DNA from: Cyanophora paradoxa CCMP329
Lineage: Eukaryota > Plantae > Glaucophyta
Length of the DNA stretch: 64,000 nucleotides
NCBI GenBank assembly: GCA_004431415.1
Contig: QPMI01000038.1
Span: forward strand, 1-64,000
Direction of reading: 5' to 3'
In this document: piece by piece, positions 1 to 54,667 of the stretch
How the letters are laid out: each line of letters opens with the position of its first letter
Numbering within the stretch: the stretch's first letter is position 1
Position numbers and translations under genes: made by a program
Notes under the pieces: model-generated
The model's database searches: none
The model's input: the letters and a program-made list of their open reading frames with translations, nothing else
What the model was told of the DNA's origin: nothing

Positions 1-1248
1 GGGCAATGCACTGAATTTGCATCTTCTGATAAGCGGCACCCGCATACCACTCCTCATTACCGACTCCACCGGCTGTGACACCATTGAATTCGAAGACCAG
101 ATCGAACGCCGATGTGCCTGTGGCATCGATGTAGCCCGTGTTCTCTTGGTTGAGAAGCGACGCCTTTCCGTTTCCAGCACCGAAGTAAATGCCAGTGAGA
201 GCGGGGTAGCTTGTGCTCTCGGTAAAGATCGCCGAATTATATTTATCTGAAGTTCGGTCGCGGCAATCATGAGAGGAGCGAAAGTATTCGAGTAAAGGCG
301 TTATTGTTGAGTTCCACATAGAAGCTTACAGCGTTGGTTCGAGTGCACGAGGAGCCAGAACCGAGAGAGTTCCGTTGTTCACCTTCGTCTTCGCGTTTTT
401 GGCGCACAGAGAATACGAGAGTGTGGATGAGACCCGCACCTGTGAGTTGCGAGAGATTGACTCGCGAACCGGAGGCGGTCGCTGGAAATCTGTGTGGAGG
501 AAACCGATTTCGTTGTAGGGGATCGCGATACCAGTCGATTTAACACGGGCAATGGTCTCAGATACAACCGCCTCATCGGCATTTACGACCTTGCAGATAA
601 TGCGGGGTTTCAGCACTTGAAGGGAAGCACCACTGTTTACGACCGAAATATTGCCAACATTGTTTACATCCTCAATGATACCATCACCAATCGCCTTTGA
701 ATTCGATTTCGACCACGATCTCAGATTCAGAGCGCAAAGTGGGAACATCGCCTTCTCGAAAGGAGAGGGTAAATCGATTTCGTAGGTTCCACCGACAGTG
801 TTACCAGCGGTTCCGACAAGACCACCCACATAGCGAAGTTTCTTATCGAGTTCGCCCTGTTCGGTCATCAGTAGAAAATACTGGGTGACGAAATCCTCTG
901 GACAACATAGCGGAATGAAGCGTGAGAGATTTTCAATGCGCTTAATTAGCGATCCAATAACGCGAAGGTAGCCAGTAGTTCCAGCGACACCATTCGTGAG
1001 ATCAGTGAGGGTGATCGGGTTAAGATCGAGTTGCAGCCGAGACCATTCAGGAAATGGTAGCGGGGATTTTGAAGACAACTCGGTTGCCGAGAGCGCTGGT
1101 GGCTCGGTCGGGGCGACCAGAACTCGAAGTGGCTTAGTGCCAGAGGACGTTCCAATGACCAGCGACTTGTTTAGGAAATAAATCCTTGTAGTCATCGGTG
1201 GTGAGCATAGATTTCAGCTTGGGCGCTGGAATTGGCTGTTAGTCTCAT
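1..1248 (-). CDS. Double jelly-roll major capsid protein, NCLDV/PLV-like, frameshifted; C-terminus runs off window
   Basis: Joining frames gives LGNRVVFKIPRYHFL..RLQLDL, IGSLIKRIE, IDLPSPFEKAMFPLCAL.SEIVVEIEF, RVNLSQLTGAGLIHTLVFSVR and QENTGYIDAT..FDLVFEF...MQIQCIA. These match the order of conserved DJR MCP blocks. ORF 326..1195 is a mosaic of these frames. Confidence 0.7.
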
Positions 1249-1294
1249 GAGCGTTTCTTCTCTATCTTTGGGATCAGAAAATAATTTACAGGGC

Positions 1295-2213
1295 TCAATA
1301 GAAATTCATTTCGGGCGGTGCGTCGTAGGTTTCGATTTCAAAAGTGAAATAATGCGCCCAAACCCGAATCTAAGAGAGCGCCATCATGGTCGATGAGTTT
1401 AATCGTGAGGCGGTCGAAGATTTTAATTCGCGGAATTCACGAATGAGAGGCACCGTAGTGGACGTGTCGAAGTGGTAGATATCACCATGTTCGAGTTCCT
1501 GTGGGATTGGAATGCGCATGAAATAACCATCGACGTGCTTGTTGACTGAGCGAATAAACGGCGCAAATTCATCAATATATAGCCAGATCATCGCCGCCGG
1601 GTCTCATCTCCACGAGTATAGCCGCGAATGCGTCGATTGAGTGTCACAGTTCCCGTCCCAGGATTAAACACAAGGAATGTATCGCTTGCAAAAGGGGTAA
1701 ATGTCTCGTAAACATATAGCTGAATATCTTTGAAACCGAATATTGCGAGTTTCTTAGCGATTGCTTTGCGATTACTGGATTTTCTGAGTGTTTCAGGGAA
1801 GCTTTGGAGAACTTGAACCAAAAGTTACTATCACTGAAAAACTCATAGATCTTTGAAGTAGTATTATAGCGGCATTTAATATATTTCCACCGAAATCTGA
1901 AAGGCGAGCTGCTTCGAGTCTTTCTGTGACTTTTGCGGCAAGGTCGTCTTTGGTGTAAAATCCTTTGGGATTGTGATGGTCACGAATCCGGAATCCGAAG
2001 CTGTGACCGAGAAATAGAGTTCCATGCGCTCGATGGTTGCACCAGTCGCGTCTATATCGTTTGTCACGGTCGAAAGAACATTGGGAACCGTTGCCTGCAC
2101 CAGGCGCACAGATTTACGTTGTCATAGCGACGGGGTAATGTCACTACATACTGGTTTGGCTGAGTAAACTCCTCATCGCGATCATCGCTCGAAAAGCTCA
2201 GGTATTCTTTCAT
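1295..2213 (-). CDS. Penton/minor capsid-like protein 1 (DUF5901-like), frameshifted
   Basis: MKEYLSFSSDDRD..PNQYVVTLP..NV/VRLVQATVPN, later IWLYIDEF..YFMRIP and a C-terminal HYFTFEIE. ORFs 2064..2285, 1876..2109, 1588..1821 and 1370..1591 are pieces of it. Confidence 0.65.
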
Positions 2214-2229
2214 CTTACTATAATAGATT

Positions 2230-3073
2230 ATGAAAGAATAACAATAAATTGCGACAGTAGAGACCTTGAAAATGGCGTGCTGCACTTGAAAACGCGCCTT
2301 AATAATGTAAGGCGATTTCGTGTGCTATCAGCTGAGATTCCCAATAGCTCTTATGTTGTTCCGCCCGATCAGACAATAACTATAACGCTTTTGAACGAAG
2401 AGCCCACAGTAATCCCCGCATCCAAAATGATAGCACCGATTCCAGCGTAAACGATTATTATTACGTCGATGCTGATAACGAACGATATCCGAAAGAGAGA
2501 GCTTTAAACAGTGATGCTTTACTCGGTTTTTCAGGCGGTTCTTTTAATCCTCTCGGTCTCTTCCCGGTTTCCTATTCTCTCGCTCTGTCTACGAACCGCT
2601 TCGTGTTCTCATCTCCGAATAGCCCTTTTACATTAGAGTCCTCAGACCAGGAGTTCTGTGACTGTCTCGGCATAGAACCCGGAGTGGTTTACGCCAGCAC
2701 ACCAGAACCAGTGCCGGTTCCACTCAGAGATTACCCCAGTCGCTACGCGATTATATGCCCGAAAATGGTCGACTTTAATGCAATTCCATATATTTACCTT
2801 GATATCGAAGAGCTCCGCCCTTTTACCAAATTCGCAGCGGTTACAGGTAGACAGAACAATGTCGACGACTCCTATCTATTGCGAATTCAGATGAATTCGG
2901 ACTTTGGTAGATATTCCTTTTACCACGAACCGAGCGCAAGCATCCCTTTCGTAAATGTCACATCGCAACTCGATTTAGATCGTCTCACAATATCGCTTCG
3001 AAAATGGCGGGGCTCTGTTGCGGATATAAACGGTCTCTCATACTCGTTCCAGCTCGAAGTGATCACCGATTAA
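2230..3073 (+). CDS. Penton/minor capsid-like protein 2, frameshifted at the 5' end
   Basis: ATG 2230, then in another frame RITINCDSRD..NVRRFRVLSAEIPNS. It continues into ORF 2603..3073 with YIYLDIEEL..LLRIQM..LDRLTISLRKWRG..DINGLSYSFQLEV. Confidence 0.65.
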
Positions 3074-3079
3074 GCGCTG

Positions 3080-4573
3080 TCACACATAGTAGCCCTCGAA
3101 ATCTATTCGGCATGCCGAAGCTACGTTCGTCGTGAGCACCCAGATTACGAGGGTTCTCACAGATCTCGGGTTCGCTAAGAAATGTTCGTCGGGTTCTACA
3201 CTTCCGGCTATTTGATTTGCATTGGTAAACACTCTCGTCGCGCCGGCTTCTGTGTATGTGACAAGCGCCGAAACTCCCGGAGTTAATTGGTAATCGATTT
3301 CAAACGTTTTAATGTAGTTTCCATTTGCAGCCGGCTTCATTTTTATAGAGGAAAGCATAAACAGACGCGGAAAATCAATGCGTAAATAATTGCCTCCCGA
3401 CCTACTACCTTGCGGCGGGTTGGTAAATCCCACCCACCCCGTAGCATTTGACCAGCGGGCATCAGAAGCTGTGCCAAATTCCGCAATAAAGGCGCTATTA
3501 TCGAGCGGCACCCAGTTAGACTCCGGGGGTGCGCTTACATCTGTGCACCCGGACAGATTAATTATGGGAACATCGCCCTCTGAGATATTCATCGTCAGCA
3601 CTGAATACATCGCATTAAAATACGTTTGCTGTGCGGAAACAAACGCGAGCGCTTCCGTTTCTAAATATTGCAAGTGCGTCGTTGTGATAGTATCGAGGGT
3701 CATTTTATCTTTCGGTAAAGGAACGCTCAGCTTATAGTAGCGATCGTAATTCTGATCATCGTTTCTGGGTAAAAGTTCCAGTAGCTTTACGTGGGCGTTT
3801 AGATCACTCGACTCTAAGAACATGCTGAGAATTGGCGATCCTGTGGCGCTTAGCATCCATTGCACGATCCCCCAATTCTTAATAGCGTCGTACGAATATC
3901 CAGATGTCGCCTTATCAGAGTCTTGGACGTGACCCGCCGTAATCGAGACCACTATAAGCTCCTCCTCGCAAGAGTTTCCGAATAAAGTGCGGGCGAATGT
4001 GTAGCCGCAAACCCCGGGCGAATTATTTCCACTCATGCAACCATCAATTAAACAGTATGTTCTTCCGGCGACTGTGACTTGTTTCGGCTCGAAATAGGTG
4101 GGCGCAGCTGAGGTAGCCCTTGCAGCATCGCGCACAAGCATCCCATTTATGTCTTCATCGTTGCTTGAAATAAAAACGGGGGACATTAAGACCGTGTCGA
4201 ACGCAGTCACGATGGTTGGTTTATAGAGATCCGCCATAGTCGCTGAGCCGCAGAGTTCCAGAGCCACAGCTTCTAAGTTAGTTGCTTCGTACTTTGGGCG
4301 CTGTACAATCGATGTAAGCACTCGTGGATTCGCGAAAATCAGCGGTAGCTTTGCTTTGTAGAGCGCCAGAATATCAGTGGCTGTATATTTAGGGGCGCCA
4401 TCGGTTCCCTTGATATTCAATAGGAGCGCGATTAATCCACCTGTGGATGTTCCCGCAAAGCAGTCGAATAGCTGTTGGATTCGTTTACCGGTTTGGGCTT
4501 CAATCTGTGCCAGTATAGCAGCCTCGATTATTCCACGCGACCCCCCTCCACTCAAAGCGAGAACGGTCTTCAT
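3080..4573 (-). CDS. Patatin-like phospholipase fused to a C-terminal discoidin (F5/8 type C) domain
   Basis: LSGGGSRG, GTSTG nucleophile elbow, ATSAAPTYF and a DGC variant of DGG. The C-terminal YLRIDF..YIKTFEIDY..VRTLVI..CRIDFEG is discoidin-like. Confidence 0.9.
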   Translation of the reverse strand: MKTVLALSGGGSRGIIEAAILAQIEAQTGKRIQQLFDCFAGTSTGGLIALLLNIKGTDGAPKYTATDILALYKAKLPLIFANPRVLTSIVQRPKYEATNLEAVALELCGSATMADLYKPTIVTAFDTVLMSPVFISSNDEDINGMLVRDAARATSAAPTYFEPKQVTVAGRTYCLIDGCMSGNNSPGVCGYTFARTLFGNSCEEELIVVSITAGHVQDSDKATSGYSYDAIKNWGIVQWMLSATGSPILSMFLESSDLNAHVKLLELLPRNDDQNYDRYYKLSVPLPKDKMTLDTITTTHLQYLETEALAFVSAQQTYFNAMYSVLTMNISEGDVPIINLSGCTDVSAPPESNWVPLDNSAFIAEFGTASDARWSNATGWVGFTNPPQGSRSGGNYLRIDFPRLFMLSSIKMKPAANGNYIKTFEIDYQLTPGVSALVTYTEAGATRVFTNANQIAGSVEPDEHFLANPRSVRTLVIWVLTTNVASACRIDFEGYYV

Positions 4574-4616
4574 TATCTTATATACTTCTTATATATCTTC
4601 TTTGTTTATAAAGAGG

Positions 4617-7600
4617 ATGTCGTTCCTGAATCCGCGACCAGATGCACGAGTTATTAATTCGACCACTCAGATAGAGGACACTGATCAGGTAAACACTGAA
4701 ATTCGCGGGTCTCTGAAAATAAACTTCAATGCAGACCGCGAAGATCCAGTCAGTGGAACACCGAGCAGACCCGCAGCTTTGCAGTTAATGAACGTCGAGA
4801 AAGGGGATCATAAACTTGGAATCGACTTTTTACTTGATGATAACGAACGAAACAGAGTCGCCAGCATTCAGGCAACCCGCCAGCTACCGAAAACGGTGCG
4901 ATATAATCGTAGGAACATCCCGAAAGCATTCGATAGAGGTCGCTTAAACTTCTTCATTCAAGATGAGAGCGGTTTCCAAAATGCAGCTATGAGAATCGTG
5001 GATAATAGCACACTTATAGCGGGAGTATCCACACGGAAAACAAAGGTAGAGGTCGTCCATGATCTCTCAGCAGGTAATCTAACGACGAGTAACATTACAG
5101 CAAGTAACATCACTACGGATACCCTAAATGTAAACTCGCTCAACTCCGAGTCGTTTTTCGCCACCAATGTCGCAACCTGTAACCTAAACATCGAATCCTT
5201 TGTGATTCAGAAGAGCGAATCGGTTCCCCAGATAACAGAGGGTGTTTTCACATTAGACCCCGCGAAACCGACCTTAGAAATTGTCGAAAATGGGAACGTT
5301 GTCGATATAATTGGCGCCAATGCTCCGAATGTGAGATCCTTAGCACTTGATAAAACGACTATATCATTTGCAGAAGAAATTCCGGCTTTTACCACAGAGA
5401 AACAGGCACTGAGAACAGACCATGTTCACATAACCAGAGACAATATAAACGATCTTTTAGGCAAGGACATCGTAAAGGCGTTTTTGGAGTTTGAAAGGAG
5501 CAAGAACACCAAAGATTCCAGCCAGGATGGAACCCTCACGACCCACACAACCGAAATCGCGGCTTTGCAATCAGAAATTAATGCTCTGTTTGCAGCAGAT
5601 GGAGCGCTTGCAATTACCTTAGCCCATATTCTGTCGAAAAGGAACATATACCCCGCGACTGACAACACATACCGAGTTGGTTTATCGAATCTGAGATGGT
5701 CAGAGGTGCATGGAGTTTCCATGTTTGCCTCCAATTTAATCCTTCCATTAAATCACTCACTCCGACCTAATCAGATTCTTACCAATGGTAATGCACTGAT
5801 CAGCTACACCGACTATAATAGTAACCTTTCCCGCTCGGTTTCGCAAACTGAGACCTACACTGTCGAGGGATACCCTCAGCAGCTCGCAAATGGGGTCTAT
5901 GTCGCTTATGTAGGCAAACCTACATATACATTCACTTGGGATCAGTTGGGTGTCACAGGTTTCGAGACGACTATACCCACTGTTTCATTGGTGGATCACA
6001 CTACTTATTATAATCCTATCTATAACAATAATGAATCGAATAAAGCATTTATCCAAAATGTCACCTCCACAGGGTTTCAGGTTTCGTTTGTCATTAACGA
6101 GACATACAATTTACTTATCATCCGAAACAACTCATTGAGTTCCGAAGCTACTATTAGTTTCACTCTTAACATCAATTATATCACCCCTGAATTCGATAGC
6201 AAACCCAGAGTGAAGGTTTACCGAGATTTACAAGGTAGCAATATCGTTCCCTTCTCACAGAATTTCGATCTTGGGGCGAATTCTTTGAGGTGGAACACAG
6301 TTTATACTTTGAATGCAAACACCTGTAATATTGTGGTCGCAGGTTCATCGGCTACTATTGGAGATCTGACCGCGCCTTTTAGAAAGGAGTATCTTAAAGA
6401 GCTGTATATAACAAAGTCTGATTTACCAGATGCTATTTCGTTGGTGCTCTCCCCGACTCCCAGCATATCATACCACAATGTGAAAGACACAAGTAATGTA
6501 GTGCAGAGTGGAAGCAAAGTATTCCAGGCATCCGAAATAGGATCGGTCTCATATAGATATCTTGCAGGGGTTCCAGCGAATTTTAATTTCACATTTGAGA
6601 CACCATTTGTTTCCCCTCCTACTATTGAAATAACAGACACGAATTTGTATGTGGTCAATGATGGGTCAGCTACATCACTTCAAAATGCACCAGCCGGCTA
6701 CTCCCCATTTGTTGCAACTAACATAACAACCACCGGCTTCACACTTGTCGGAAATGCAACAGTGACATATGCTCTGTCAGGGTATCCTGTTGGGTTGTAT
6801 TTTTCGAAATTTAATCTCTCTGTTATCCCAGCAGTGTCCCTTGCTCCTCCCTTTACTATCAGTTGGAAGGCAACAGGAACTATTCCGCGATTTGACCCCG
6901 AAGATCGATTAAAAATAAGGTATCCTCTCGATGTGACCGACCTCCATACTACGAGGATCAATGGGCAGAATTTCGTGTTTAATGGAACCAATGCGACTTT
7001 GATCGATAATAGAGTCACAAATAATTACTTTTTCGATTCTCGATATATTAATACTTGCAATATTGTCATACAAAACACGTTTGAAAATCGCAGTAAGACC
7101 TTAACAGTCACCTTGCCCACTCACTCGAATGTCTCAGATGGATTTCACTATTATCTTTTCAATCGTAATTACACCTCATATATTCCATATCCTTCTGAGA
7201 CTGTCAACATGAGCTATCCCAGAGTCACCCTAACATCGACCAATGCTGACTTCTTTGGATCCACGGACTTTATGACCTTCTTTGCTTTCACATCCTCTAC
7301 TGATGGGCTCTTAGTTTATTACACTTTCAGGTATGATGCTGTTTGGACTCAGCTTGACAGCCACCCAAATACAGATGTCATCGAAGTGGGCGATAAGAAA
7401 TACATAAAAACCGCTTCTCCATGGGTGTGCACTGTCCGGCTCGATGACAGATACACTCCTAACCTTAATAACATTGGATTGCACTCGACATGCAATATTT
7501 ATGTGCAAGGTGCGATTTCGGCTTCGAAGTACTTTGAGGGTGGGAATTGTGATACAGGACATAGGTTGCTATCGCGAAATGGACTCTTTGAGTCATTCAG

Positions 7601-8339
7601 TGGGACGGCTCTACCGCCCTTTATCAGGGACACAGTCTATGATACCACATGCAATATTTGGGTGTGTCGATCTGTGAGCAATCCACCTGTGACACAGGAA
7701 TTATACAAGTATCTCGCAGATACCTATGGTGCAATCTCAGGATCCTCCACAGGAAATCCAGCGACGGCTCCAATCGTGTTTGCGAATGCATACACAGCGC
7801 CGACCTCATTAGCAGGGTCGACAGAGCCGCCACCAAATGATCCAAATCCGAACCAGCCTAACCCAGATCCCGATTCACAAGATCCCCCTACAACTAATCC
7901 AGATCCAAACACACCACCTAATAATCCCACGAATCCTACAAATCCAGTCGGGGCACCGGGAACAGATCCAGGAACGTTAGTGCTTATGATTCTCTTGCCG
8001 ATTCTCGGTGCTCTTGGGCTTGTGCTTGCATACAAATTCCGAGCTTTATGTTGTGCTTGCATAGACAGAACCATTGCAGGAGCAGGTAATAAATACTCAA
8101 CACCAGAGCTTAATGTGACCCAAACAGCCGAAGGAGATGTGGGCTTAGAGGTGAGATCAGCCGAGGGGCATGGTCTTAGTGTTGTGAGGACTGACCGACC
8201 ACCAGCAAATAGGGCAGCACCCAAAAAATCACGAGCACAAGAATTGGCAGAGCAAACGATGAATAATGATAGAGACTTTATGGCGGAAATGGCACAGCGA
8301 GAAGGGAGAATATATGAACATGTTCCAAACGTTATGTAA
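4617..8339 (+). CDS. Large fibre/surface protein with H-lectin-like domains, Pro/Asn linker and C-terminal transmembrane segment
   Basis: Probable start MSFLNP (4617). It has phage-fibre-like PATDNTY.VG....RW..V motifs, a short coiled coil, FTFETPFVSPPTI..NITTTGFT..ISWKATG, and LVLMILLPILGALGLVLAY near the C-terminus. Confidence 0.7.
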   Translation: MSFLNPRPDARVINSTTQIEDTDQVNTEIRGSLKINFNADREDPVSGTPSRPAALQLMNVEKGDHKLGIDFLLDDNERNRVASIQATRQLPKTVRYNRRNIPKAFDRGRLNFFIQDESGFQNAAMRIVDNSTLIAGVSTRKTKVEVVHDLSAGNLTTSNITASNITTDTLNVNSLNSESFFATNVATCNLNIESFVIQKSESVPQITEGVFTLDPAKPTLEIVENGNVVDIIGANAPNVRSLALDKTTISFAEEIPAFTTEKQALRTDHVHITRDNINDLLGKDIVKAFLEFERSKNTKDSSQDGTLTTHTTEIAALQSEINALFAADGALAITLAHILSKRNIYPATDNTYRVGLSNLRWSEVHGVSMFASNLILPLNHSLRPNQILTNGNALISYTDYNSNLSRSVSQTETYTVEGYPQQLANGVYVAYVGKPTYTFTWDQLGVTGFETTIPTVSLVDHTTYYNPIYNNNESNKAFIQNVTSTGFQVSFVINETYNLLIIRNNSLSSEATISFTLNINYITPEFDSKPRVKVYRDLQGSNIVPFSQNFDLGANSLRWNTVYTLNANTCNIVVAGSSATIGDLTAPFRKEYLKELYITKSDLPDAISLVLSPTPSISYHNVKDTSNVVQSGSKVFQASEIGSVSYRYLAGVPANFNFTFETPFVSPPTIEITDTNLYVVNDGSATSLQNAPAGYSPFVATNITTTGFTLVGNATVTYALSGYPVGLYFSKFNLSVIPAVSLAPPFTISWKATGTIPRFDPEDRLKIRYPLDVTDLHTTRINGQNFVFNGTNATLIDNRVTNNYFFDSRYINTCNIVIQNTFENRSKTLTVTLPTHSNVSDGFHYYLFNRNYTSYIPYPSETVNMSYPRVTLTSTNADFFGSTDFMTFFAFTSSTDGLLVYYTFRYDAVWTQLDSHPNTDVIEVGDKKYIKTASPWVCTVRLDDRYTPNLNNIGLHSTCNIYVQGAISASKYFEGGNCDTGHRLLSRNGLFESFSGTALPPFIRDTVYDTTCNIWVCRSVSNPPVTQELYKYLADTYGAISGSSTGNPATAPIVFANAYTAPTSLAGSTEPPPNDPNPNQPNPDPDSQDPPTTNPDPNTPPNNPTNPTNPVGAPGTDPGTLVLMILLPILGALGLVLAYKFRALCCACIDRTIAGAGNKYSTPELNVTQTAEGDVGLEVRSAEGHGLSVVRTDRPPANRAAPKKSRAQELAEQTMNNDRDFMAEMAQREGRIYEHVPNVM

Positions 8340-8376
8340 CAACCTTAATTTTTGTAGTATTCCATAATAGAGTATA

Positions 8377-44449: not shown

Positions 44450-44472
44450 TTTACATTAAAGTGATATATAAT

Positions 44473-45327: not shown

Positions 45328-45365
45328 TGCTTCTTTTACTAAGAAGGAAAGAAAAATAATGTTCA

Positions 45366-45629: not shown

Positions 45630-45651
45630 TCCTTAATCTACTACAAGAAAA

Positions 45652-46671
45652 TTAAACGATGCTAATCAATTCACCCGAAAGACCTGTTATACTTGAATAT
45701 GAACCAGAGGAGCTTGTGACCAGTGTCACATACTCATTTTGAGCAAGATTTAGAATGCAAGAGAAACACAATGCTTTATTGGTGTGTGTGCTGCTGTGGA
45801 TTTGGGAAATGCTTAAACCCCCAGGATCTGCATCATTCACTTTTATAAATAATTCGATAGTAGCTGATGTGGTCGAAAAAGAGAACACTGAAAATCGATA
45901 GTGTCCTGCAACAGGTGCTGTAAATCTTCCTGTTGATGTGCTAAATGCATTGGTATTGTTAACCCGAACTGTTGCCCAGTTTATCAGAGCAGCAGCAGAA
46001 GTAGCAGTGTGAGCATATCCAAGTTGAACTGAAAATCGTGGATGTGACGTTTTAAGATAGCATCCTTCATTTACTGTCAAACTATTGGCTTCAAGAGTAG
46101 CAACAGTGTTACTATTTCGTTTTAACAAAAAATTGACATCGGCTCCTGTATCAATTTCAGGAGAGACAACCTTAGTAGATGCTGTGATTATTGATTGTGT
46201 GTAGTTAGGAATACTTATACCAGCATTTGCTGTAACCAAACCTGTAAATGTGCTTGTTCCTGTAATGTTTACTTGATTTGCTGTAAGGGTTCCATCAATC
46301 ATTGCCCCATCTCCAATATAAGCGCCTCCACTTTTTACTACAAGAGCTGAGTTATTGATGGTGTTGTCAAAAGTAACAATCTTTGGTGTGGTGAACCCTC
46401 CCACATCATCATAAATTGCTGAATCTGATACAATCTGACCTGATTGAACTTGGTTCTTGTTTGAAACTATTAAACCTGTGGTTCTCACCCTCCCTCCATT
46501 TCGATCACATCGAATTTCTTTGCATCTGATCACAGAATGTTGAGAGAATGAATCGGCTCCTATGGTCTCTGTGCAAATGAAACCTGGGGTAGCATCTGTT
46601 ACTGTATGGTTGAGTTGATGCAATTTCGGCGCTGCATAACAGAAAACAGGGACAGCTATTTGAGTGGTCAT
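45652..46671 (-). CDS. C1q-domain fibre protein with shared N-terminal module
   Basis: HPRFSV..INW..V.VN...FSTSTGRFTAPVAGHYRFS..LNLAQNEYV..SGELI. Confidence 0.85.
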   Translation of the reverse strand: MTTQIAVPVFCYAAPKLHQLNHTVTDATPGFICTETIGADSFSQHSVIRCKEIRCDRNGGRVRTTGLIVSNKNQVQSGQIVSDSAIYDDVGGFTTPKIVTFDNTINNSALVVKSGGAYIGDGAMIDGTLTANQVNITGTSTFTGLVTANAGISIPNYTQSIITASTKVVSPEIDTGADVNFLLKRNSNTVATLEANSLTVNEGCYLKTSHPRFSVQLGYAHTATSAAALINWATVRVNNTNAFSTSTGRFTAPVAGHYRFSVFSFSTTSATIELFIKVNDADPGGLSISQIHSSTHTNKALCFSCILNLAQNEYVTLVTSSSGSYSSITGLSGELISIV

Positions 46672-46693
46672 ACTTTACATTATGTGGATAATA

Positions 46694-47764
46694 TTATGAT
46701 GAATGGACAAGGATACATCCAAAAAAGTATCTGATATTGTAGTTTACACCAGCATCTCCGGAATTGACCAGCCTGATCGAATCATTAGCTACAAGGTTCA
46801 CAATAATATCAAAACCAACAGTTGCATTTCCTGTTGCATTTTGAGAGTTAGAGTTAATTCCGAATGTTGTCCCATTTTTAAGCAAAGAGGTCAAATAAGT
46901 ATTGCTCTTAGCAGAATTGTAACCAGACGCATGGAAAAATACGAGGTAGTTTCCAGAAACAGGTGCAGTAAAACTTCCTGTTGCAGGATCGAAATTATTT
47001 CCATGGTTGACTATGACTCCTGTTGATGAGAACAAAGTTGTTCCACTTGCAGCGAAGTTTGTATCTTTTGAAGTATTGGGCGCTTGTTTTGTTGCAAAGA
47101 AACGAGGATGACTACTTAATTTGAGATACTTGTCTGTCGGAAGTGTAAGGAGCTGAACAGTTGTATTATCTGTTTGAGTTGTCTTTCCAAGAGAAAATAC
47201 TGTATTTCCATTTCGTTTGTAGTTCACATTTGCGTCTGTCCCATTATCTGTCTCAGGTGTGTTTATTCTTGTAGTAGCTGTGATAGTTTGATACTGAAAG
47301 TTGCCTGAGAGACCACCATTAAAGTTCATCAATCCTGTGAATACACTTGTCCCACTCACATTTAATTGGTTTGCTGTAACAGTTCCTGCTACATTTGCTC
47401 CATCTCCAATGTAGGCACCACCACTCTTCACCACAAGAGCGGAATTATTACTTGTGTTACCAAAAGTAAATATCTGAGCTGTGGTAAATCCACCTACATT
47501 ATCATATATTGCTGAATCTGGGACTACTTGACCTGCTTGAACTTGGTTTTTATTCGAGATTATAATGCCTGTGGTTCTAATCTTACCATTATTGCGATCA
47601 CATCGAATTTCTTTGAATCTGAGTATAGTATTCTCTGTGAAAGAGGTATTGCTTGTGGTTTCAGTGCAAATATACCCAGGGGTTGAATCAACTACTCCAT
47701 GAGAGGTGCTGTGTAGTGATTTGGCTGCAAGTTCATAGTTTGGGATTTCTAATAGAGAGGTCAT
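46694..47764 (-). CDS. C1q-domain fibre protein with shared N-terminal module
   Basis: HPRFFA..VNHGNNFDPATGSFTAPVSGNYLVFF..LLKNG..VNLVANDSI..FFGCILV. Confidence 0.85.
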   Translation of the reverse strand: MTSLLEIPNYELAAKSLHSTSHGVVDSTPGYICTETTSNTSFTENTILRFKEIRCDRNNGKIRTTGIIISNKNQVQAGQVVPDSAIYDNVGGFTTAQIFTFGNTSNNSALVVKSGGAYIGDGANVAGTVTANQLNVSGTSVFTGLMNFNGGLSGNFQYQTITATTRINTPETDNGTDANVNYKRNGNTVFSLGKTTQTDNTTVQLLTLPTDKYLKLSSHPRFFATKQAPNTSKDTNFAASGTTLFSSTGVIVNHGNNFDPATGSFTAPVSGNYLVFFHASGYNSAKSNTYLTSLLKNGTTFGINSNSQNATGNATVGFDIIVNLVANDSIRLVNSGDAGVNYNIRYFFGCILVHSS

Positions 47765-47789
47765 CTTTGTAATAGTGTGAGAATCTTTA

Positions 47790-50700
47790 TTATGCTGATG
47801 CTATCCCATGGATTGCAATTTGAAGCCACTGTGGTTGAATGGTTACCCATCCTGCTGCCCAAATAACAAGATTGATTGTGGTAGAGGTTGTTGAGTTGCT
47901 TGATATTCCTATTTTATAATCGATTTCCACATTTGTTGCAGGTAGTCCCTGCAATGTTACAACAACAGATGGAGCAGATGCAAAGGCAGGACTCCAATTT
48001 AATGTAATGCTATGGTTTTGCCTTGCTGAACTGCCCCCAATTTGAGGATTCGCAATTGTCATTTCATGTCTCCCTTTTCTAATCAGGTTATCAAGCATGT
48101 ATTGAGGAGCCAGCTTAGTAACCTTTGAATTGTCCCGAGGATCCATGACCCACATTTCTCTTGCATATGCATTTCCACGAACAAGTAGGGTTTTATCCTG
48201 ATAGTAAGATATAGAGTTAGTAGAAAGGGTTGAATTGTGGAAATTCCAAATAACAGGAGGATCAGGCATAATATATGGGTCATAATCGAGAAAGTAACCT
48301 GATCCAATGAGAAGGTTTGCATTTGCAGTGATATTATTTGCTGTAAAGGGATCGAGGGTGGGTTTATTGGTCAGGTCATTGTAGTTGCCCGAAAATAAAG
48401 CGGGTTTGTTATAGATATCTGTATTCCAATCATGAGTATGTGCAAAATCTGTAATATCTGCTTTGACATGAGTGTGAGCAAAATCTGTAATCTCACTCTT
48501 GACATGAGTGTGTGCAAAATCTGTAATCTCACTCTTGACATGAGTGTGTGCAAAATCTGTAATCTGTGACTTTGTGTGAGTGTGTGCGAAATCTGTGATT
48601 TCAGATTTAAAATGAGTGTGAGCGAAATTCGTAATATCTGCTCTTGTGTGGGTGTGTGCAAAATCTGTTATCTGGGATTTTGTGTGAGTGTGTGCGAAAT
48701 CTGTGATCTCTGCTCTTGTGTGGGTATGTGCTCGATTATTCAGATCAAGGAAGCTACCTGAATATGCAACAGGGTGTAGATTAGATGGGGTGGGTTTATT
48801 AATGAGATCATTATAATCTCCTGTGAAAGATATGATTTTCAGTTCACCCCTTCCAACATAATCGGAAGGGAGGTCAATCTTAATGGGCATGATAGCTGGA
48901 TCATCAGGTATCTCATACTCACCTCCTGGATGTACAACTGGGAATGTTTGATTGCTTTCAGTATGAACAAAGAAGTTGCATGCTGTTACTGTTCCATCAA
49001 TTACCCCACCTGTGAGAGGGAGGTAATCTCCTGTCACACCAATGTTTATACCTGCAATGATTGTATTAAGTTCTGTTTCATCTATGTAGTTTTGGGCTTG
49101 CAGGTAATCCTCTGTAACCACTCTTGAAATGGTCTCATTGTGAATATTCTTTGCAGCCATCCTCTGATTGGCTTCCAGAACCCCACCATAATTTGTTTTG
49201 ATCCATGCAAGCTCTGCCCTCCCATAGTTATCATTTGCAGTTCCCACTATGGGAATATAGGAGTATTTATCTCGACTGAAAACTATCATTGGTCTTGATC
49301 CATCCAGACTGCTCACATCTGCAACATGAACCTGTATAGCTGCATTGTAATTTTGGTAGGTTGCTGGGTCTGTTGGAACTCTAAAAGTATCTGTGGGTAT
49401 GTCAACCTCCATGTAGCTTGACACAAAGATATTTGGTATGGTTGCTCCTGGTTCTGGTGGTGGATTATAAGAGCCTGGTAATGTTCTAATATGCAATGGT
49501 CCTATCATAGCTGAATTTGCAAGTGTCCCTTCCACATGAACATAGTGGTGATTCAAAAAGATCCTTTCAGGGACATTGCAAGTCTGGTAAAGAGAAACTC
49601 CCAGAGTAGCAAGAGGCTCTACTTTTGCGAATTCTGGTTGGTCATTGATCTCATCCCAGGTGTGTTCATGTTTGCTTGGTGGAAACTCAGTTGGTATTCC
49701 ATCAATGTCACCCCAATCATGCCTGTGATCCTCTGGTGGGAATTTCGCTGGTTTCCCTAAGATCTCATCCCAGTCATGGTTGTGATCCTCTGGTGGAAAT
49801 CTGGCTGGTTTGTTATTGATCTGCTCCCAATCTGGAAAGAACTCCCAAATCTCTGGGCGAAATCCATCTGGTAATAATTCTTCATGGGGTTCATAAGGTT
49901 GCTCATAGTCAACCACTGGTGGTTCGTGACCATCTGCTAAGTATTCCTCATGGGGTTCATAATTCTGCTCATATTCATACTCTTGTGGATCTAAACCATC
50001 TGGTAAATACTCTTCCTCATTGGGATCATATTGATCATATTCATACTCTTGTGGGTCGAAACCATCAGGTAGGTATTCCTCCTCATCTGGAACGAATTGG
50101 TATTCGTCAAGCTCCAAAATATCAATTTCAGGAGGTAAATATTGCTCATCAATTTGCTTTCTTGGTTCAATTATCGGTTTATTTCGAACCTGCTCCCAAC
50201 TCACAATGTGTTGCCCAAAAGGAACTGTCTCATCTGCTGTGTACTCTCTTCCTGGTTGCTTTTTCGGTGTTAAATCTGGTGGATCCCAAGGAAGAGGGAA
50301 GGGAACTGGGACAGGTCCATAATATTCAAAGATCTCTCTGATGGTCTTCTCACTTACAAGTTTCTCACCATTTGCATAGACATTGCTTCCATGGATATTT
50401 CGCCATTGCCTGGTTCTGATACCAAGATCTTTGGTGTTGGTTACCAGAGGTAAAAGGTGCCTGTCCATTTCGACAAGGTCTGGGTGTAAATGAATTGTTA
50501 CTGGTTGAGTGGGGCTACTGTTGACAGTGACAGACGCCTTATTCTTTGCTGTATCACCAGGTAGTTGGAAACCGAATTGTGCATTAGAAGCCGAATTCGC
50601 CACAATATCTCTTGGATAAACATTGTTAGTGAACTCGATTTTGTTGGTTTCTCCATGGGGGGCTATCTGTAATATTTCGGGAATTTGTGCAATTGCATTT

Positions 50701-50834
50701 GATCCTTCATTATAGATTCTTAAACCACTCTGATGCCCACCCTTCTCATTTTGAACATTGAATATTAACCTACCACTATCGAATCGAGTTGGAATATCTG
50801 GGTGGGTTCCACTGGTTTTCAGTTTGAAACTCAT
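47790..50834 (-). CDS. Tail-fibre-like protein (acidic repeats, HxH repeats, H-lectin/gp53-like C-terminus)
   Basis: The N-terminus resembles 4617..8339 (FD.GRL.F.VQ.E.G). It has EEYLPDG.DPQEYEY repeats, eight HTHxxxxITxFA units and a C-terminal WSPAFASAPSVVVT. Confidence 0.8.
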   Translation of the reverse strand: MSFKLKTSGTHPDIPTRFDSGRLIFNVQNEKGGHQSGLRIYNEGSNAIAQIPEILQIAPHGETNKIEFTNNVYPRDIVANSASNAQFGFQLPGDTAKNKASVTVNSSPTQPVTIHLHPDLVEMDRHLLPLVTNTKDLGIRTRQWRNIHGSNVYANGEKLVSEKTIREIFEYYGPVPVPFPLPWDPPDLTPKKQPGREYTADETVPFGQHIVSWEQVRNKPIIEPRKQIDEQYLPPEIDILELDEYQFVPDEEEYLPDGFDPQEYEYDQYDPNEEEYLPDGLDPQEYEYEQNYEPHEEYLADGHEPPVVDYEQPYEPHEELLPDGFRPEIWEFFPDWEQINNKPARFPPEDHNHDWDEILGKPAKFPPEDHRHDWGDIDGIPTEFPPSKHEHTWDEINDQPEFAKVEPLATLGVSLYQTCNVPERIFLNHHYVHVEGTLANSAMIGPLHIRTLPGSYNPPPEPGATIPNIFVSSYMEVDIPTDTFRVPTDPATYQNYNAAIQVHVADVSSLDGSRPMIVFSRDKYSYIPIVGTANDNYGRAELAWIKTNYGGVLEANQRMAAKNIHNETISRVVTEDYLQAQNYIDETELNTIIAGINIGVTGDYLPLTGGVIDGTVTACNFFVHTESNQTFPVVHPGGEYEIPDDPAIMPIKIDLPSDYVGRGELKIISFTGDYNDLINKPTPSNLHPVAYSGSFLDLNNRAHTHTRAEITDFAHTHTKSQITDFAHTHTRADITNFAHTHFKSEITDFAHTHTKSQITDFAHTHVKSEITDFAHTHVKSEITDFAHTHVKADITDFAHTHDWNTDIYNKPALFSGNYNDLTNKPTLDPFTANNITANANLLIGSGYFLDYDPYIMPDPPVIWNFHNSTLSTNSISYYQDKTLLVRGNAYAREMWVMDPRDNSKVTKLAPQYMLDNLIRKGRHEMTIANPQIGGSSARQNHSITLNWSPAFASAPSVVVTLQGLPATNVEIDYKIGISSNSTTSTTINLVIWAAGWVTIQPQWLQIAIHGIASA

Positions 50835-50918
50835 CCCTGTTGTAGGTTTGCTGGATAATTGAAACTCATCCCTGTTTACTCTACTTATAGAGATTTATTA
50901 AATTTGAGTTAAGTAAAG

Positions 50919-52460
50919 ATGCCCCTTCGTGTAATTCTCAGTCTCTCAGGTGGGGGAGCTCGTGGTATAATTATTACGAGATTGTTAACAGAAATCGAAA
51001 CTCGAACAGGAAAAAGAGTAATTGACCTTGTTGATCTGGTGAGTGGAACATCCACTGGTGGGATAATTGCGATTGGTCTCAATGTGAAAAATCCCGAATT
51101 TCCAAACGAACCTAAACTCACTGCAACCGATTTGCATTCCACTTATCTCAATCAACTCCCCTTAATCTTTGCAAATCCCAGAAATATTATTGATAATGCA
51201 CTTTTCAACACCAAGTATGATGTGACCCCATTGGAGACAGCCATTCTCACTGTTACTGGTGAGTCTCTCATTCAAGACTCTCTCAAAGATGTAGTGATCA
51301 CAAGTTTTGACACTGTGAGTATGAAGCCCATTTTTATCACCAATGATAACTCCTACAAATCCATCCCCAGCAAGATTGCTGCAAGATCCACCTCTGCTGC
51401 TCCAACATATTTCTCACCTGTGAACTATGATGGGATGTCTCTAATTGATGGTGCAATCTCAGGTAACAACAATCCCAGTGTATGTGGTTACAGTCATGCT
51501 AAGAAGATCTATGATGATGATGATGATATTATAGTGATAAGTATATCCTGTGGTGAAGTCAATGAAACAGATGCTCCAAATGTGGGTTACTCTTATGAAG
51601 ATGTGAACAGCTGGGGCATCCTCTCTTGGATTGCTTCGACCTCTGGAAGTCCATTAATCAATATGTTGATGGCTGCAAGTGAACTCTCTGCTCTGGAAAA
51701 GATGCAAGAGTTTCTCCCATACAATGATGATCAAGGATATGCAAGATATTATAGACTCTCTGTTCCACTTCCAAAGACCATAGTAAACTCTTTGGATGAT
51801 ACCTCTAAGATCCCAGATATGATAGATGCAACCGAAATGTACATAGCAGCAAACACTGTGATGATTGATAGACTCTGTGATTTACTGGTTGCAAATTACG
51901 AAATCAAGAACCCTGCAAGGTTCTATATATCATCCACTCTGAATAACATACCTCCCATTGATGCTAACTGGTATCTTCTATCAGATGGTGCATTCACTGC
52001 TTCATCATCGAAAATTGGAAGGGAGGCATTTAAAGCAAGACCTTCATTAACAGGTTGGGAGGCAAATGCATCTGCTCCTGATGGAATATGGAGTGTTCCC
52101 ACTGAGTATCTGCAAGTATCCTTCCCATATATATTTGAGGTAGCATCTATAATTGCGTATGGTTCTGGTGTAACAAACGCTTTTATTAAGACCTTCAATG
52201 TTGCAACATCACAAGATGGTGTTTCCTGGTCATTTATCAAGTATGAAGGTGTCAACAGAGTGTTTATGTGTGAAACTATTAATAATGCCCACAACAGTGG
52301 TGATGTCTCATACAGTTCTGGGTATCCCACCTCTATTAGAGACGTTTTCTATATTGGCTACCCTCTGAGGACAAGGTATATTCGAATTTATCCACTTGTA
52401 TACATCAACACCCCAACTATGAGAGTGGATGTCACAGGTGCATTTATTCGAAGTGTATGA
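50919..52460 (+). CDS. Patatin-like phospholipase fused to a discoidin domain
   Basis: LSGGGARG, GTSTG, STSAAPTYF, DGA; YLQVSF..FIKTF.V..SQDG..W..TRYIRIYP..MRVDV.G. Ortholog of 3080..4573. Confidence 0.9.
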   Translation: MPLRVILSLSGGGARGIIITRLLTEIETRTGKRVIDLVDLVSGTSTGGIIAIGLNVKNPEFPNEPKLTATDLHSTYLNQLPLIFANPRNIIDNALFNTKYDVTPLETAILTVTGESLIQDSLKDVVITSFDTVSMKPIFITNDNSYKSIPSKIAARSTSAAPTYFSPVNYDGMSLIDGAISGNNNPSVCGYSHAKKIYDDDDDIIVISISCGEVNETDAPNVGYSYEDVNSWGILSWIASTSGSPLINMLMAASELSALEKMQEFLPYNDDQGYARYYRLSVPLPKTIVNSLDDTSKIPDMIDATEMYIAANTVMIDRLCDLLVANYEIKNPARFYISSTLNNIPPIDANWYLLSDGAFTASSSKIGREAFKARPSLTGWEANASAPDGIWSVPTEYLQVSFPYIFEVASIIAYGSGVTNAFIKTFNVATSQDGVSWSFIKYEGVNRVFMCETINNAHNSGDVSYSSGYPTSIRDVFYIGYPLRTRYIRIYPLVYINTPTMRVDVTGAFIRSV

Positions 52461-52482
52461 TACATCAGGACTTCTGATGTAT
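52460..52482 (+). terminator. Hairpin directly after the patatin stop (possible 3'-end signal)
   Basis: ATACATCAG-gactt-CTGATGTAT. A second palindrome TACAGTAGCTACTGTA lies at 52507-52522. Confidence 0.35.
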
Positions 52483-52910
52483 GGTGCACCAGATTATGGC
52501 TTTTTTTACAGTAGCTACTGTATTTTGCATTATTTTACTGTATGTTCCTTACAGTAGAAAGTAGCCGATAAATCGTTTTTTCGAAATATGTGTATGTAAT
52601 ATATACGTATATATACTTGATACCTACATCATCGTGTAGGTCGTTTTAAGCGCTTTCCAGCGCTATGTCGACGGTCGCGATCTGATGATCTGGTGGTGAG
52701 ATACAAGCGTTTGAAGTTGCCGACAGCCCCACAGTGGGAACGTTACGCGATGCCGACAGTAGTAACGCGAACCGTCAAGTATATATGCGCATATATACAT
52801 TTTGCCCACAAAATCGCAGATTGGTCGGTCGCCGACTCGGGGGGCTCAGTGTCACACGAAATTTATGGTATATATATATATGATGAAACACGTGATGTCA
52901 TGACGTCATA

Positions 52911-53100
52911 ATGGTTGCGCAACCAGCGCAACCATGATGCAACCATGGTTGCGCTGGTTGCGCAACCAGGTTGCGCAACCAATTTTTTTCCAATTGAGTG
53001 GTTGCGCAACCTGGTTGCGATGATGCAACCATGGTTGCGATGATGGTTGCGATGATGCAACCATGGTTGCGATGATGGTTGCGATGACGCGCAACCATTT
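52911..53100. repeat. Array of ATGGTTGCG/GCAACCAT motifs in both orientations
   Basis: Repeated GGTTGCGCAACC and GCAACCATGGTTGC palindromes. Confidence 0.9.
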
Positions 53101-53128
53101 TGCGATTCATAGAATTATCCGATTGACA

Positions 53129-53258
53129 GAAACTTCACCGAAACTTTACCGAAACTTCACCGAAACTTCCCCGAAACTTTTTCGAAACTTCACCGAAACT
53201 TTTCCGAAACTTCACCGAAACTTCACCGAAACTTCACCGAAACTTCACCGAAACTTCA
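53129..53258. repeat. 11-bp tandem repeat GAAACTTCACC, ~12 units
   Basis: Directly visible, with a few variant units. Confidence 0.95.
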
Positions 53259-53418
53259 ATATCGGTCATACATATGTATTTTATTACCAGGTGCTCCGTT
53301 TTTAAATCTGAAAACAGATTCGGAATCGCCACGATAGCGCCAATCAGGATTCGTCGTGATCGGGCACTTACAAAATAAAAAATTGACAAGGATTTTCTGG
53401 ATTCTCCCAACTTCTGCT

Positions 53419-53661
53419 ATGGATCCCATCTACCAAGACCCTGCTATCATCCATGCTGCCCAGTCAGACTGGATCCATGATTTCAAGACTGCTTTCTATT
53501 ACAATTTCTTCATGTCACAGCCAGAGCATGTGAGACTGTTCTTTGTTTATAATTACCAACTGGTCTCAAACCTTGAAACTTTCTTCTTGGAAATTATTGA
53601 AAAAGATAGACAAATGAGGAAAATTCGCCAGAGGTCTAAGAGATTCCGAAAGCGTTGTTAA
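53419..53661 (+). CDS. Hypothetical small protein with basic C-terminus
   Basis: MDPIYQDP...RKIRQRSKRFRKRC; converges on the integrase stop with a 1-bp gap. Confidence 0.5.
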   Translation: MDPIYQDPAIIHAAQSDWIHDFKTAFYYNFFMSQPEHVRLFFVYNYQLVSNLETFFLEIIEKDRQMRKIRQRSKRFRKRC

Positions 53662-53662
53662 T

Positions 53663-54667
53663 CTATTTCCTCTGCCCACTTCGTAGATTGAATCGAGTTT
53701 GGGGTGCAGTATATGTTTCTTTGGTGGTTGAAAAGTCATTATACCACCTCTGACTGTTGACTTCTGATAATTTCTGGGTTCCTGCTATGGTCAACTTCTT
53801 TAATTCTTTCTCTACTCTACCCTTCTTTTGTGCTCTTGCTTCTGTGAGGGGTTCTTTTGGTATTTCACTTGCTTTTTCTATGCCCTCCTTTCTGATTGCT
53901 GAATCAACCCTGGCTTCCTCCTTTGCCTGTTCAAGAGCATCCACTGTGGGAGTTTCATGATACTCAACACCTTTAATGGGCAGCAGTTCATGAAAAGCGA
54001 ATCTACCATCAACTATCTCACCACTGGGACTTCTGATTCTGAACTTGAAGCCCTCTCTGCCCTCCACACTATAAACAATTCGAGACCAATTAACCCCTTG
54101 CTTTGCAAATGGATTCTTTTCAACTTTCACTCTCACAAACATTCCAGGTTTCAGGGCATCAAGATACTCAATCGATTTCTTGAATCTCTGATCCTCCATA
54201 TTCACTATCTCTTTGTAGTGGGCTTCTGTGGTCTCTGCTGGTTTTCTCTTGGTTGCAGAGTGAATGGTATTATTATAATTATACTCAATATCACCCAACA
54301 CATCAAAAAATCGTGCAGTATTATTTGCAATGCAGTAGTTTGTGATCAATCTCTTGATCTGTCTGTTAAAGGCTTCAATTCGACCTTGGGTTCTGTGATC
54401 TGCAACATCACTTAGTTGATGCTCAATGAATTTTGTTCCCAAATAATCTGTGAACAACACATTGGTAAATTCGCTTCCACTGTCACTCTGAATGCGAACA
54501 ATTGGTCTGGGGACTCTCTGTTCAAGTTGCTTGAATGCTGCAAGTGTAGTTAGAGCACTCTTGTCTCTCATTGGAATTATGAACCCAGTTCTTAGGGTTG
54601 ATTCCATTGCACTCATAAATGTATCATAACCATCATTCTGCTTTTTGTATGCAGGAAAGAAGAGCAG
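53663..54667 (-). pseudogene. Polinton-type rve (DDE) integrase, 5' part displaced by LTR insertion
   Basis: Y...NDGY..., IQSDSGSEF (2nd D), GRIEAFNRQIK (E), YNNTIHSAT..KP, G.FVRV.....F.K....WS..VY.V. The first catalytic Asp falls at the insertion junction. Confidence 0.88.

What the first reader, a model, noticed from the sequence alone, without database searches (positions are those of the whole stretch)
1..54667. Three divergent proviruses of an apparently unusual integrating virus combining an NCLDV-like capsid module with phage-type receptor-binding fibres
Seen: a DJR MCP and two penton-like genes next to a patatin-discoidin and fibre genes, TIR/hairpin ends, a 6-bp TSD, and a Polinton-type integrase nearby. 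Known: a 6-bp TSD plus rve integrase typifies Polintons, some PLVs and Mavirus; HxH repeats, S74 chaperones and C1q tips are typical of tailed-phage fibres. Inference: a eukaryote-integrating virus family that spends over 10 kb on a variable adhesin arm. Replication and packaging genes are not in the window, so its class is unresolved.
Basis: partly seen in the sequence, partly recalled or inferred. Interest (0 to 1): 0.88.

Follow-up and report, generated by a model that had tools for sequence, protein, structure and literature searches.

The report
Known algal Polinton-like virus fragments
The AT-rich blocks are real, partial copies of integrated Polinton-like DNA viruses, likely in the alga Cyanophora paradoxa; this group, its giant-virus-like capsid and its phage-like fibres are already in print, so the find is largely ordinary.

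Summary
Real but largely known. Three AT-rich blocks (A 1-13863, B 31699-40284, C 41470-54667) and a 726-bp mini-element with a 6-bp TSD sit in GC-rich host DNA. None is a complete provirus: only A has capsid genes, only C reaches an integrase (cut), and the TSD belongs to the mini-element. A's capsid protein is near-identical to Cyanophora paradoxa MCPs tabulated by Bellas 2023, with HHpred hits to NCLDV capsids, which that paper calls normal for PLVs. Bulzu 2025 counts 156 glaucophyte PLVs (A32 ATPase 139, rve 85, lipase 89, AdoMet decarboxylase 66, S74 37, pPolB 49, no protease) and describes their PTR/H-lectin fibre and patatin-discoidin. Short-read contigs from many runs hold block A and show multi-copy families; the frameshifts in A are likely assembly errors. 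Not found in my searches: a ~125-aa N-terminal module shared by seven fibre-arm genes with exchangeable tips (C1q or unknown), strongly conserved in two B/C pairs (dN/dS 0.03-0.05). The class-level position of the capsid remains untested.

The parts
1..13863 (.). Block A: one arm of an endogenous Polinton-like virus (capsid module plus fibre arm); runs off the window start
   Evidence: GC 0.38-0.50; end fixed by the terminal decamer at 13854-13863 and by contigs of other LINE copies that align only from 13864 (records 6 and 14)
1..1217 (-). Major capsid protein, double jelly roll; frameshifted in this assembly, C-terminus beyond base 1
   Evidence: P0002, P0003; ESM Atlas 0.97-0.98 to Capsid_N clusters for P0003; published HHpred for near-identical proteins
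1330..2213 (-). Penton-like gene 1, several frameshifts (assignment by recalled motif only)
   Evidence: Three-frame translation; no Pfam hit
2211..3073 (+). Penton-like gene 2, frameshifted (assignment by recalled motif only)
   Evidence: no Pfam, PHROG or NCBIfam hit
3080..4573 (-). Patatin phospholipase; 36% identical over its full length to the patatin-discoidin of C
4617..8339 (+). 1240-aa protein with weak H-lectin-like stretches and a hydrophobic segment near the C-terminus; likely adhesin
   Evidence: Pfam H_lectin E 8e-4, below cut-off; sequence
8377..11889 (+). HxH-repeat fibre, PTR-like repeats plus C-terminal H-lectin-like tip
   Evidence: both Pfam hits below cut-off; phrog_988 E 7e-20
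11945..12943 (+). Shared N-terminal module plus C1q-like tip
   Evidence: (phrog_15750 E 1e-6)
12965..13225 (+). 86-aa ORF, 51% identical to 45366-45629 in C
13247..13863 (.). Terminal region of A; identical (reverse complement) to 26488-27104
26488..27213 (.). 726-bp non-coding mini-element of the A type, about 110-bp terminal inverted repeats
   Evidence: (I6)
26482..26487 (+). Left copy of 6-bp target-site duplication GGGGGC
27214..27219 (+). Right copy of 6-bp target-site duplication GGGGGC
31699..40284 (.). Block B: one arm of a second end-type, cut inside a fibre gene
   Evidence: GC step at 31700; similarity to C stops at 40284; contigs have loose ends there
31699..31984 (.). Terminal hairpin of B, starting CACACATA
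32997..33395 (-). S-adenosylmethionine decarboxylase (B)
   Evidence: Pfam AdoMet_dc E 4e-11; ESH motif present
33425..33697 (-). Small zinc-finger protein of the type found in HNH endonucleases (B)
33720..35431 (-). Two genes (277 and 284 aa) with the shared N-terminal module and unknown tips (B)
35780..40284 (-). Fibre region of B: three overlapping ORFs (HxH repeats, weak LamG-like stretch, C-terminal S74 chaperone), likely one long gene in other copies
   Evidence: single-base indels against deep contigs fall in both ORF overlaps (table 4)
41470..54667 (.). Block C: same end-type as B; fibre arm, patatin-discoidin, repeat region, cut integrase; no capsid genes
41470..41565 (.). Terminal hairpin of C, starting CACACATA
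42731..43132 (-). S-adenosylmethionine decarboxylase (C), 62% identical to B's
43319..43591 (-). Zinc-finger protein (C)
43619..45327 (-). Two shared-module genes, 96% and 98% identical in protein to B's
45652..47764 (-). Two shared-module genes with C1q tips
   Evidence: Pfam C1q above cut-off; Foldseek C1q hits
47790..50834 (-). HxH-repeat fibre (1014 aa)
50919..52460 (+). Patatin-discoidin (F5/8 type C) fusion
52905..53258 (.). Palindrome cluster and 11-bp tandem array; function unknown, possibly an origin or an internal junction
53663..54667 (-). rve-type integrase, N-terminal part lost at 54667
   Evidence: a deep contig matches 54381-54667 and continues with 63 other letters (record 8)

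Best explanation
These are partial, nested copies of a multi-copy family of endogenous Polinton-like viruses, likely in the glaucophyte Cyanophora paradoxa, which likely integrate through an rve integrase acting on terminal repeats and would form double-jelly-roll virions bearing phage-type fibres. Shown: capsid gene, fibre, patatin and AdoMet decarboxylase genes, a cut integrase, defined ends, and a 6-bp TSD on a mini-element made only of A-type ends. Inferred: the integrase of an intact copy mobilised that mini-element in trans; MCP and pentons build the shell; HxH/S74 fibres and C1q, H-lectin or discoidin tips bind host surface glycans; virion-borne patatin breaches the membrane; AdoMet decarboxylase feeds polyamine synthesis for genome packing; fibre tips are exchanged among copies on a conserved N-terminal module. 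Packaging (A32) and replication genes (pPolB, D5 or PIF1 type) lie outside the window and are taken from the published table for this host group. Dependence on a giant helper virus is possible but untested.
For: The MCP fragment has 2 relatives among 1.84 billion representatives: P0002 (53%) and P0003 (37%), the latter named as a C. paradoxa gene model. Bellas 2023 Table S2 lists C. paradoxa MCPs with a 58-residue stretch identical to the window by eye, HHpred 92-98% to NCLDV MCPs, and Table S4 gives 366 MCP hits in that genome. Bulzu 2025 Table S6: of 156 glaucophyte elements, A32 139, rve 85, tyrosine recombinase 0, lipase 89, AdoMet_dc 66, S74 37, pPolB 49, protease 0, matching the window's rve, patatin, AdoMet_dc and S74. 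19 of 24 listed runs, all one organism label, hold 55-61% of the words of 1-10000 (15 named studies, 14 of them from one year and perhaps one campaign; one holder may be the source). Contigs over the MCP region have depth about 1400-1850 against 35-62 for an exact contig at 12355-13135, and about 1200 over the integrase against 56-59 at 40427-40773: a rough sign of tens of copies. Deep contigs differ from the window by single-base indels across the capsid region (12 of 61 shown, all between 247 and 2232), as Bellas reports for EVE assembly errors. dN/dS between B and C: 0.046 and 0.030 for the two shared-module genes, 0.13 for the zinc finger. In Gezel-14T a fibre and a putative lipase were found in particles.
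Against: My own fold of the MCP failed (pLDDT 33.5, two-row alignment); Foldseek on that model is weak (TM 0.2-0.27) although its named top hits are mostly DJR capsids. No PDB sequence hit. Pentons are unconfirmed. No contig listed bridges the A/host, B/host or C/host terminal junctions by 31 letters on both sides in the rows shown (tables cut), and linkage of the integrase to C's fibre arm rests on the window's assembly. Contig depth is not a copy number by the tool's own warning. Host identity is inferred from protein identity to a named genome, not read from the record. Only 2 of 156 glaucophyte elements matched Bulzu's PLV MCP profile, so the capsid is unusually divergent.
Confidence: 0.86

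Rival explanations
1. The elements belong to the NCLDV-like small viruses (Mriyavirus, Zoravirus, Zephyrvirus continuum of Bellas and Sommaruga 2026) rather than to Aquintoviricetes-type PLVs, and are a host-linked branch of them. This refines rather than replaces the best explanation.
For: All four Atlas rows for P0003 are viral clusters, three of them Capsid_N/Capsid_NCLDV in 12-18% of members with Nucleocytoviricota commonest. 15 of 156 matched an NCLDV penton profile and only 2 the PLV MCP profile. Zoravirus and VC218 often carry rve (57%, 62%), and Zephyrviruses a large lipase ORF.
Against: Best hits to NCLDV capsids are generic for protist PLV MCPs. The top Foldseek hit is an adintovirus capsid (weak model). 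107 of 156 matched a PLV ATPase profile and 1 the NCLDV one. No VLTF, HUH or Mriya48 gene was recognised in the window (Pfam, PHROG, NCBIfam scans of the main ORFs), though the relevant arm is missing.
Confidence: 0.2
2. The blocks are decayed remnants of a large giant-virus integration (GEVE) broken up by retroelements.
For: NCLDV-like capsid; AdoMet decarboxylase and patatin also occur in large viruses (a 24%-identical patatin on a 171-kb viral contig); many frameshifts in A.
Against: Short defined termini, a TSD on a mini-element, repeated parallel arms (B and C), tens-fold contig depth, indels absent from deep contigs, purifying selection and no giant-virus core genes in about 36 kb of AT-rich DNA.
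Confidence: 0.03
3. The AT-rich blocks are contaminant phage or virus DNA chimerically assembled into host contigs.
For: Phage-type fibre domains; sharp GC steps; the inverted duplication 13247-14520/25827-27104 could be a local misassembly.
Against: 19 of 24 listed runs under one organism label hold block A; the mini-element has a TSD; an exact low-depth contig spans 40427-40773 between B and C in both runs laid; a eukaryote-virus capsid and integrase are present.
Confidence: 0.03

Closest known systems
Endogenous PLVs of Cyanophora paradoxa (Bellas et al. 2023, PMC10120064, Tables S2 and S4; Bulzu et al. 2025, PMC12220804, Table S6, Fig. S6)
   Same: Near-identical MCP; rve integrase, patatin/lipase, discoidin fusion, S74, PTR plus H-lectin fibre, AdoMet decarboxylase; multi-copy; frameshifted in assembly.
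   Different: No difference in kind found. The end structures, the mini-element, the C1q tips and the shared N-terminal module are not described in the parts of these papers that I read.
Gezel-14T (PgVV) of Phaeocystis globosa (bioRxiv 10.1101/2022.07.28.501842)
   Same: DJR MCP, penton, phage-like fibre and putative lipase, both found in particles.
   Different: Tyrosine recombinase and alpha/beta hydrolase rather than rve and patatin; one long fibre gene rather than an arm of several; MCP not detectably similar in my searches.
Maverick-Polintons / Polintoviricetes
   Same: rve integrase, TIRs, 6-bp TSD, DJR capsid.
   Different: Maturation protease 0 of 156 and pPolB only 49 of 156 in the glaucophyte set; MCP outside the Maverick-Polinton columns of Table S4.
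Mriyaviruses, Zoraviruses, Zephyrviruses (bioRxiv 10.64898/2026.06.19.733378)
   Same: Small genomes with an NCLDV-like morphogenic module; rve in Zora and VC218; lipase in Zephyr.
   Different: Marker genes (VLTF2/3, HUH, Mriya48) not seen here; mriyaviruses lack integrases; Cyanophora is not mentioned in that preprint's main text.

Membership tests
Polinton-like viruses (broad sense) | Double-jelly-roll major capsid protein | tested here: met
   Atlas features 0.97-0.98 to Capsid_N clusters for relative P0003; weak Foldseek DJR hits; published HHpred for near-identical proteins; own AlphaFold model uninformative
Polinton-like viruses (broad sense) | Single-jelly-roll penton (mCP) | tested here: inconclusive
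   Two ORFs with recalled penton-like motifs next to the MCP; no library hit
Polinton-like viruses (broad sense) | A32-like packaging ATPase | not testable with these tools
   Not in the window; no genome held; 139 of 156 in the published glaucophyte set
Polinton-like viruses (broad sense) | Integrase (rve or tyrosine recombinase) | tested here: met
   rve core with two of three catalytic motifs, cut at 54667; on block C, not on the capsid-bearing block
Polinton-like viruses (broad sense) | Terminal inverted repeats and 5-6 bp TSD | tested here: inconclusive
   Met for the A-type mini-element; no large block has both ends
Polinton-like viruses (broad sense) | Genome of 14-40 kb | not testable with these tools
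   All copies in the window are partial (13.9, 8.6, 13.2 kb)
Polintoviricetes (Maverick-Polintons) | pPolB and capsid maturation protease | not testable with these tools
   Neither is in the window; published counts 49 and 0 of 156 argue against
Mriyaviruses and related NCLDV-like groups | VLTF2/VLTF3, HUH endonuclease, Mriya48 | tested here: inconclusive
   None recognised among the ORFs scanned, but the replication arm is absent from the window
Mriyaviruses and related NCLDV-like groups | MCP and ATPase group with Nucleocytoviricota in phylogeny | not tested
   No reference set could be fetched; only two intact relatives were available
Virophages (Mavirus type) | Virophage-type MCP and protease | tested here: not met
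   No virophage capsid among named Atlas rows or the 50 Foldseek rows shown (several rows unnamed); MCP-VIR 0 of 156
Giant endogenous viral elements | Long block with NCLDV core genes | tested here: not met
   Short, end-bounded, repeated blocks; no core genes found

The most novel reading that the evidence does not exclude
The Cyanophora elements are a deep, glaucophyte-specific virus lineage on the giant-virus side of the PLV continuum, still intact in tens of copies, whose virions use a cassette system: an undescribed ~125-aa docking module, held under strong purifying selection, carries interchangeable receptor-binding tips (C1q or unknown folds) that are shuffled among the endogenous copies.
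Probability: 0.2. Interest if true: 0.62.

Novelty: already known. Interest (0 to 1): 0.3.

Why it matters
What remains of value: a culturable alga of a deep-branching lineage with many near-identical, apparently intact copies offers a system to test induction, helper dependence and fibre function; the capsid has almost no environmental relatives and has not, in what I read, been placed in a class; and the shared N-terminal module may be how several different tips attach to one virion.

Tried and rejected
No whole genome is held, so base 1 could not be extended and copies could not be counted directly. Word-based protein searches: none for the MCP fragment among longer proteins, only itself for P0002, only P0002 and P0003 for the alignment. 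IMG/VR scans with the MCP fragment, the shared-module alignment and the integrase found no relative; the patatin alignment gave 1 locus of 44 candidates at 24% identity, not followed up. Both metagenome scans were empty. These scans need short exact peptides, so the blanks are weak. AlphaFold failed for the MCP (pLDDT 33.5) and for the N-terminal module (residues 1-248 below 50; only the C1q tip folded). The module has no match in Pfam, PHROGs, NCBIfam, PDB sequences or phage genomes. No RNA holder listed; this says nothing on expression. No tRNA in the window. No similarity between B's and C's outer flanks and no TSD partner for either. No earlier findings in three look-ups. Literature: 'Cyanophora + polinton + major capsid protein' 3 papers; 'Cyanophora paradoxa + endogenous viral + polinton-like' 1; 'glaucophyte + virus + polinton + virophage' 4; 'C1q + polinton-like + fiber' 0. 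No trimer prediction for the module and no Atlas result for the penton-like gene were obtained, so both questions stay open. Rejected: GEVE remnant, contaminant, Mavirus-type virophage.
Full report
Anatomy. The window has three AT-rich blocks in GC-rich DNA. Block A (1-13863) reads, from the left: capsid gene (-), two penton-like genes, patatin (-), a 1240-aa protein, an 1170-aa HxH fibre, a 332-aa and an 86-aa ORF (all +), then a non-coding end. Block B (31699-40284) and block C (41470-54667) start with the same octamer and a terminal hairpin, then AdoMet decarboxylase, a zinc finger, two genes with a shared N-terminal module, and fibre genes. B stops inside a fibre gene. C goes on through two C1q-tipped genes, a 1014-aa fibre, patatin-discoidin, a repeat region and an integrase cut at 54667 by a GC-rich element with a zinc-knuckle ORF. 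Between A and B lie a LINE (4044-codon frame with RT and weak RNase H) and a 726-bp mini-element made of A's end sequence, with about 110-bp TIRs and the TSD GGGGGC.

Is it real? 19 of 24 listed runs hold 55-61% of the sampled words of 1-10000; all carry one organism label, in three different years, and one may be the source. Contigs over the capsid region are about 30 times deeper than an exact contig at 12355-13135, and those over the integrase about 20 times deeper than one at 40427-40773. The tool warns that contig depth is not copy number, so this is a rough sign of multi-copy families. Deep contigs differ from the window by single-base indels: 12 of 61 are shown, all between 247 and 2232. 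The frameshifts in A are therefore likely errors of this assembly or peculiar to this copy. In B, indels fall in both overlaps of the three fibre ORFs, which suggests one long S74-tipped gene in other copies.

The capsid. A full HMMER scan of 1.84 billion representatives with the MCP fragment gave 2 hits: P0002 (53%, from Logan) and P0003 (37%, named by its source as a Cyanophora paradoxa gene model). The ESM Atlas places P0003 with Capsid_N/Capsid_NCLDV clusters at 0.97-0.98, with a recognition value below the tool's threshold. My AlphaFold model failed; Foldseek on it gave weak hits, led by an adintovirus capsid and a pithovirus MCP. Bellas 2023 Table S2 lists six C. paradoxa MCPs; two match the window closely by eye (a 58-residue identical stretch), one is P0003, and all six have HHpred best hits to iridovirus, ascovirus or Pyramimonas virus MCPs at 92-98%. 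The paper states that MCPs of most Polintons and PLVs are more similar to NCLDV capsids than to Sputnik's, and neighbouring rows for other protists show this. An NCLDV-like capsid is thus the ordinary state.

The fibres and lipase. Bulzu 2025 has a section on phage-like fibres in PLVs: S74 in most host groups, a PTR-PTR-H_lectin protein in a C. paradoxa PLV, and discoidin alone or fused to patatin in glaucophyte PLVs (n = 11) (Fig. S6 text). Its Table S6 row for Glaucocystophyceae (156 elements) gives A32 139, rve 85, tyrosine recombinase 0, lipases 89, AdoMet_dc 66, S74 37, pPolB 49, D5_N 40, PIF1 34, protease 0, PLV-MCP profile 2, virophage MCP 0. These are profile counts on an error-prone assembly and are probably lower bounds. 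They fit the window and supply the genes it lacks. Starrett 2021 also noted adintovirus-like proteins in C. paradoxa contigs.

What I did not find in print. Seven ORFs share an N-terminal module of about 125 residues (23-35% identity across types); a profile of it finds these seven and no other copy in the window (the seven match by construction). It has no match in Pfam, PHROGs, NCBIfam, PDB sequences or phage genomes and did not fold. Three carry C1q-like tips and four carry unknown tips. Two B/C pairs show dN/dS of 0.046 and 0.030 at dS about 0.5. A search for C1q with polinton-like and fiber gave 0 papers. That the module docks tips onto the virion is inference from gene context only.

Mechanism. 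Shown: gene content, ends, TSD, conservation. Inferred from related systems: rve-mediated integration with a 6-bp TSD, independent attachment by fibres and entry helped by a lipase, as proposed for Gezel-14T where both are in particles. The polyamine role of AdoMet decarboxylase and the penton motifs are recalled knowledge. Helper dependence is untested.

Class. Not resolved. The 2026 framework describes small viruses with NCLDV-like modules, some with rve or lipase, and does not mention Cyanophora in its main text. The published ATPase profile counts favour PLV (107 against 1). I could not build a phylogeny.

Papers seen: PMC10120064, parts 2-3 of 7 of the text, passages, and supplement rows (Tables S1, S2, S4; the file is cut, Table S5 and the figshare data not seen). 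PMC12220804, section 9, part 1 of 2 of section 13, passages, Table S6 and part 1 of the supplementary PDF. PMC8502044 and 10.1101/2022.07.28.501842, passages. 10.64898/2026.06.19.733378, abstract, sections 3 and 6, passages; its supplements were not seen and may place these MCPs. 10.64898/2026.10.13.758929, term search only, no hits.

Verdict. Observation partly confirmed; interpretation partly supported; already known at group level; interest 0.30.

Noticed in passing
window 13247-14520 and 25827-27104: Inverted duplication: A's end and the mini-element sit at the same base of a LINE 5' region. The 617 viral bases are identical; the 657 flanking bases differ by 5 substitutions and 4 indels. 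Either one insertion later duplicated, two insertions at a preferred site, or a local misassembly.
   Followed up: partly
window 14521-26487 (-): LINE with a single frame of about 4000 codons: 15 copies of a 126-bp repeat, an endonuclease-like stretch (recalled motifs), RT (E 1e-18) and weak RNase H; its 3' end is cut at about 14520.
   Followed up: partly
window 54668-64000: GC-rich multi-copy element that cuts the integrase; gag-like ORF with a zinc knuckle (56982-59093) and a 1635-codon open frame with no Pfam hit. A tRNA-like stretch near 55040-55100 seen by eye was not called by ARAGORN.
   Followed up: partly
window 40285-41470: Between B's break and C's end: a short palindrome, a 14-bp array (6.8 copies) and a 262-bp repeat (2.8 copies) that abuts C's hairpin exactly; C's true end could lie further left.
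   Followed up: partly
window 32226-32571 and 42258-42698: Paired palindromic arrays of a 9-bp unit in the subterminal DNA of B and C; candidate protein-binding or origin sites.
   Followed up: no
window 7980-8339 (+): The 1240-aa protein ends with a Pro/Asn-rich linker, a hydrophobic segment and a Cys cluster, like a membrane-anchored surface protein; unusual for a capsid fibre, and an assembly frameshift is not excluded.
   Followed up: no
window 12355-13135 and 45557-47228: Contigs over the C1q-type tip genes are much shallower (46-62 in A, about 190-220 in C) than over the capsid or shared genes, a hint that tips vary among copies; depth cannot rank genes reliably.
   Followed up: partly
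window 30057-31022: Tandem duplication of 482 bp (99%) about 680 bp outside B's end.
   Followed up: no
window 28300-29630: Possible intron-containing host gene; no Pfam hit for the ORFs tested.
   Followed up: no
L001 10001-11008: Patatin relative (24%) on a 171-kb IMG/VR contig.
   Followed up: no
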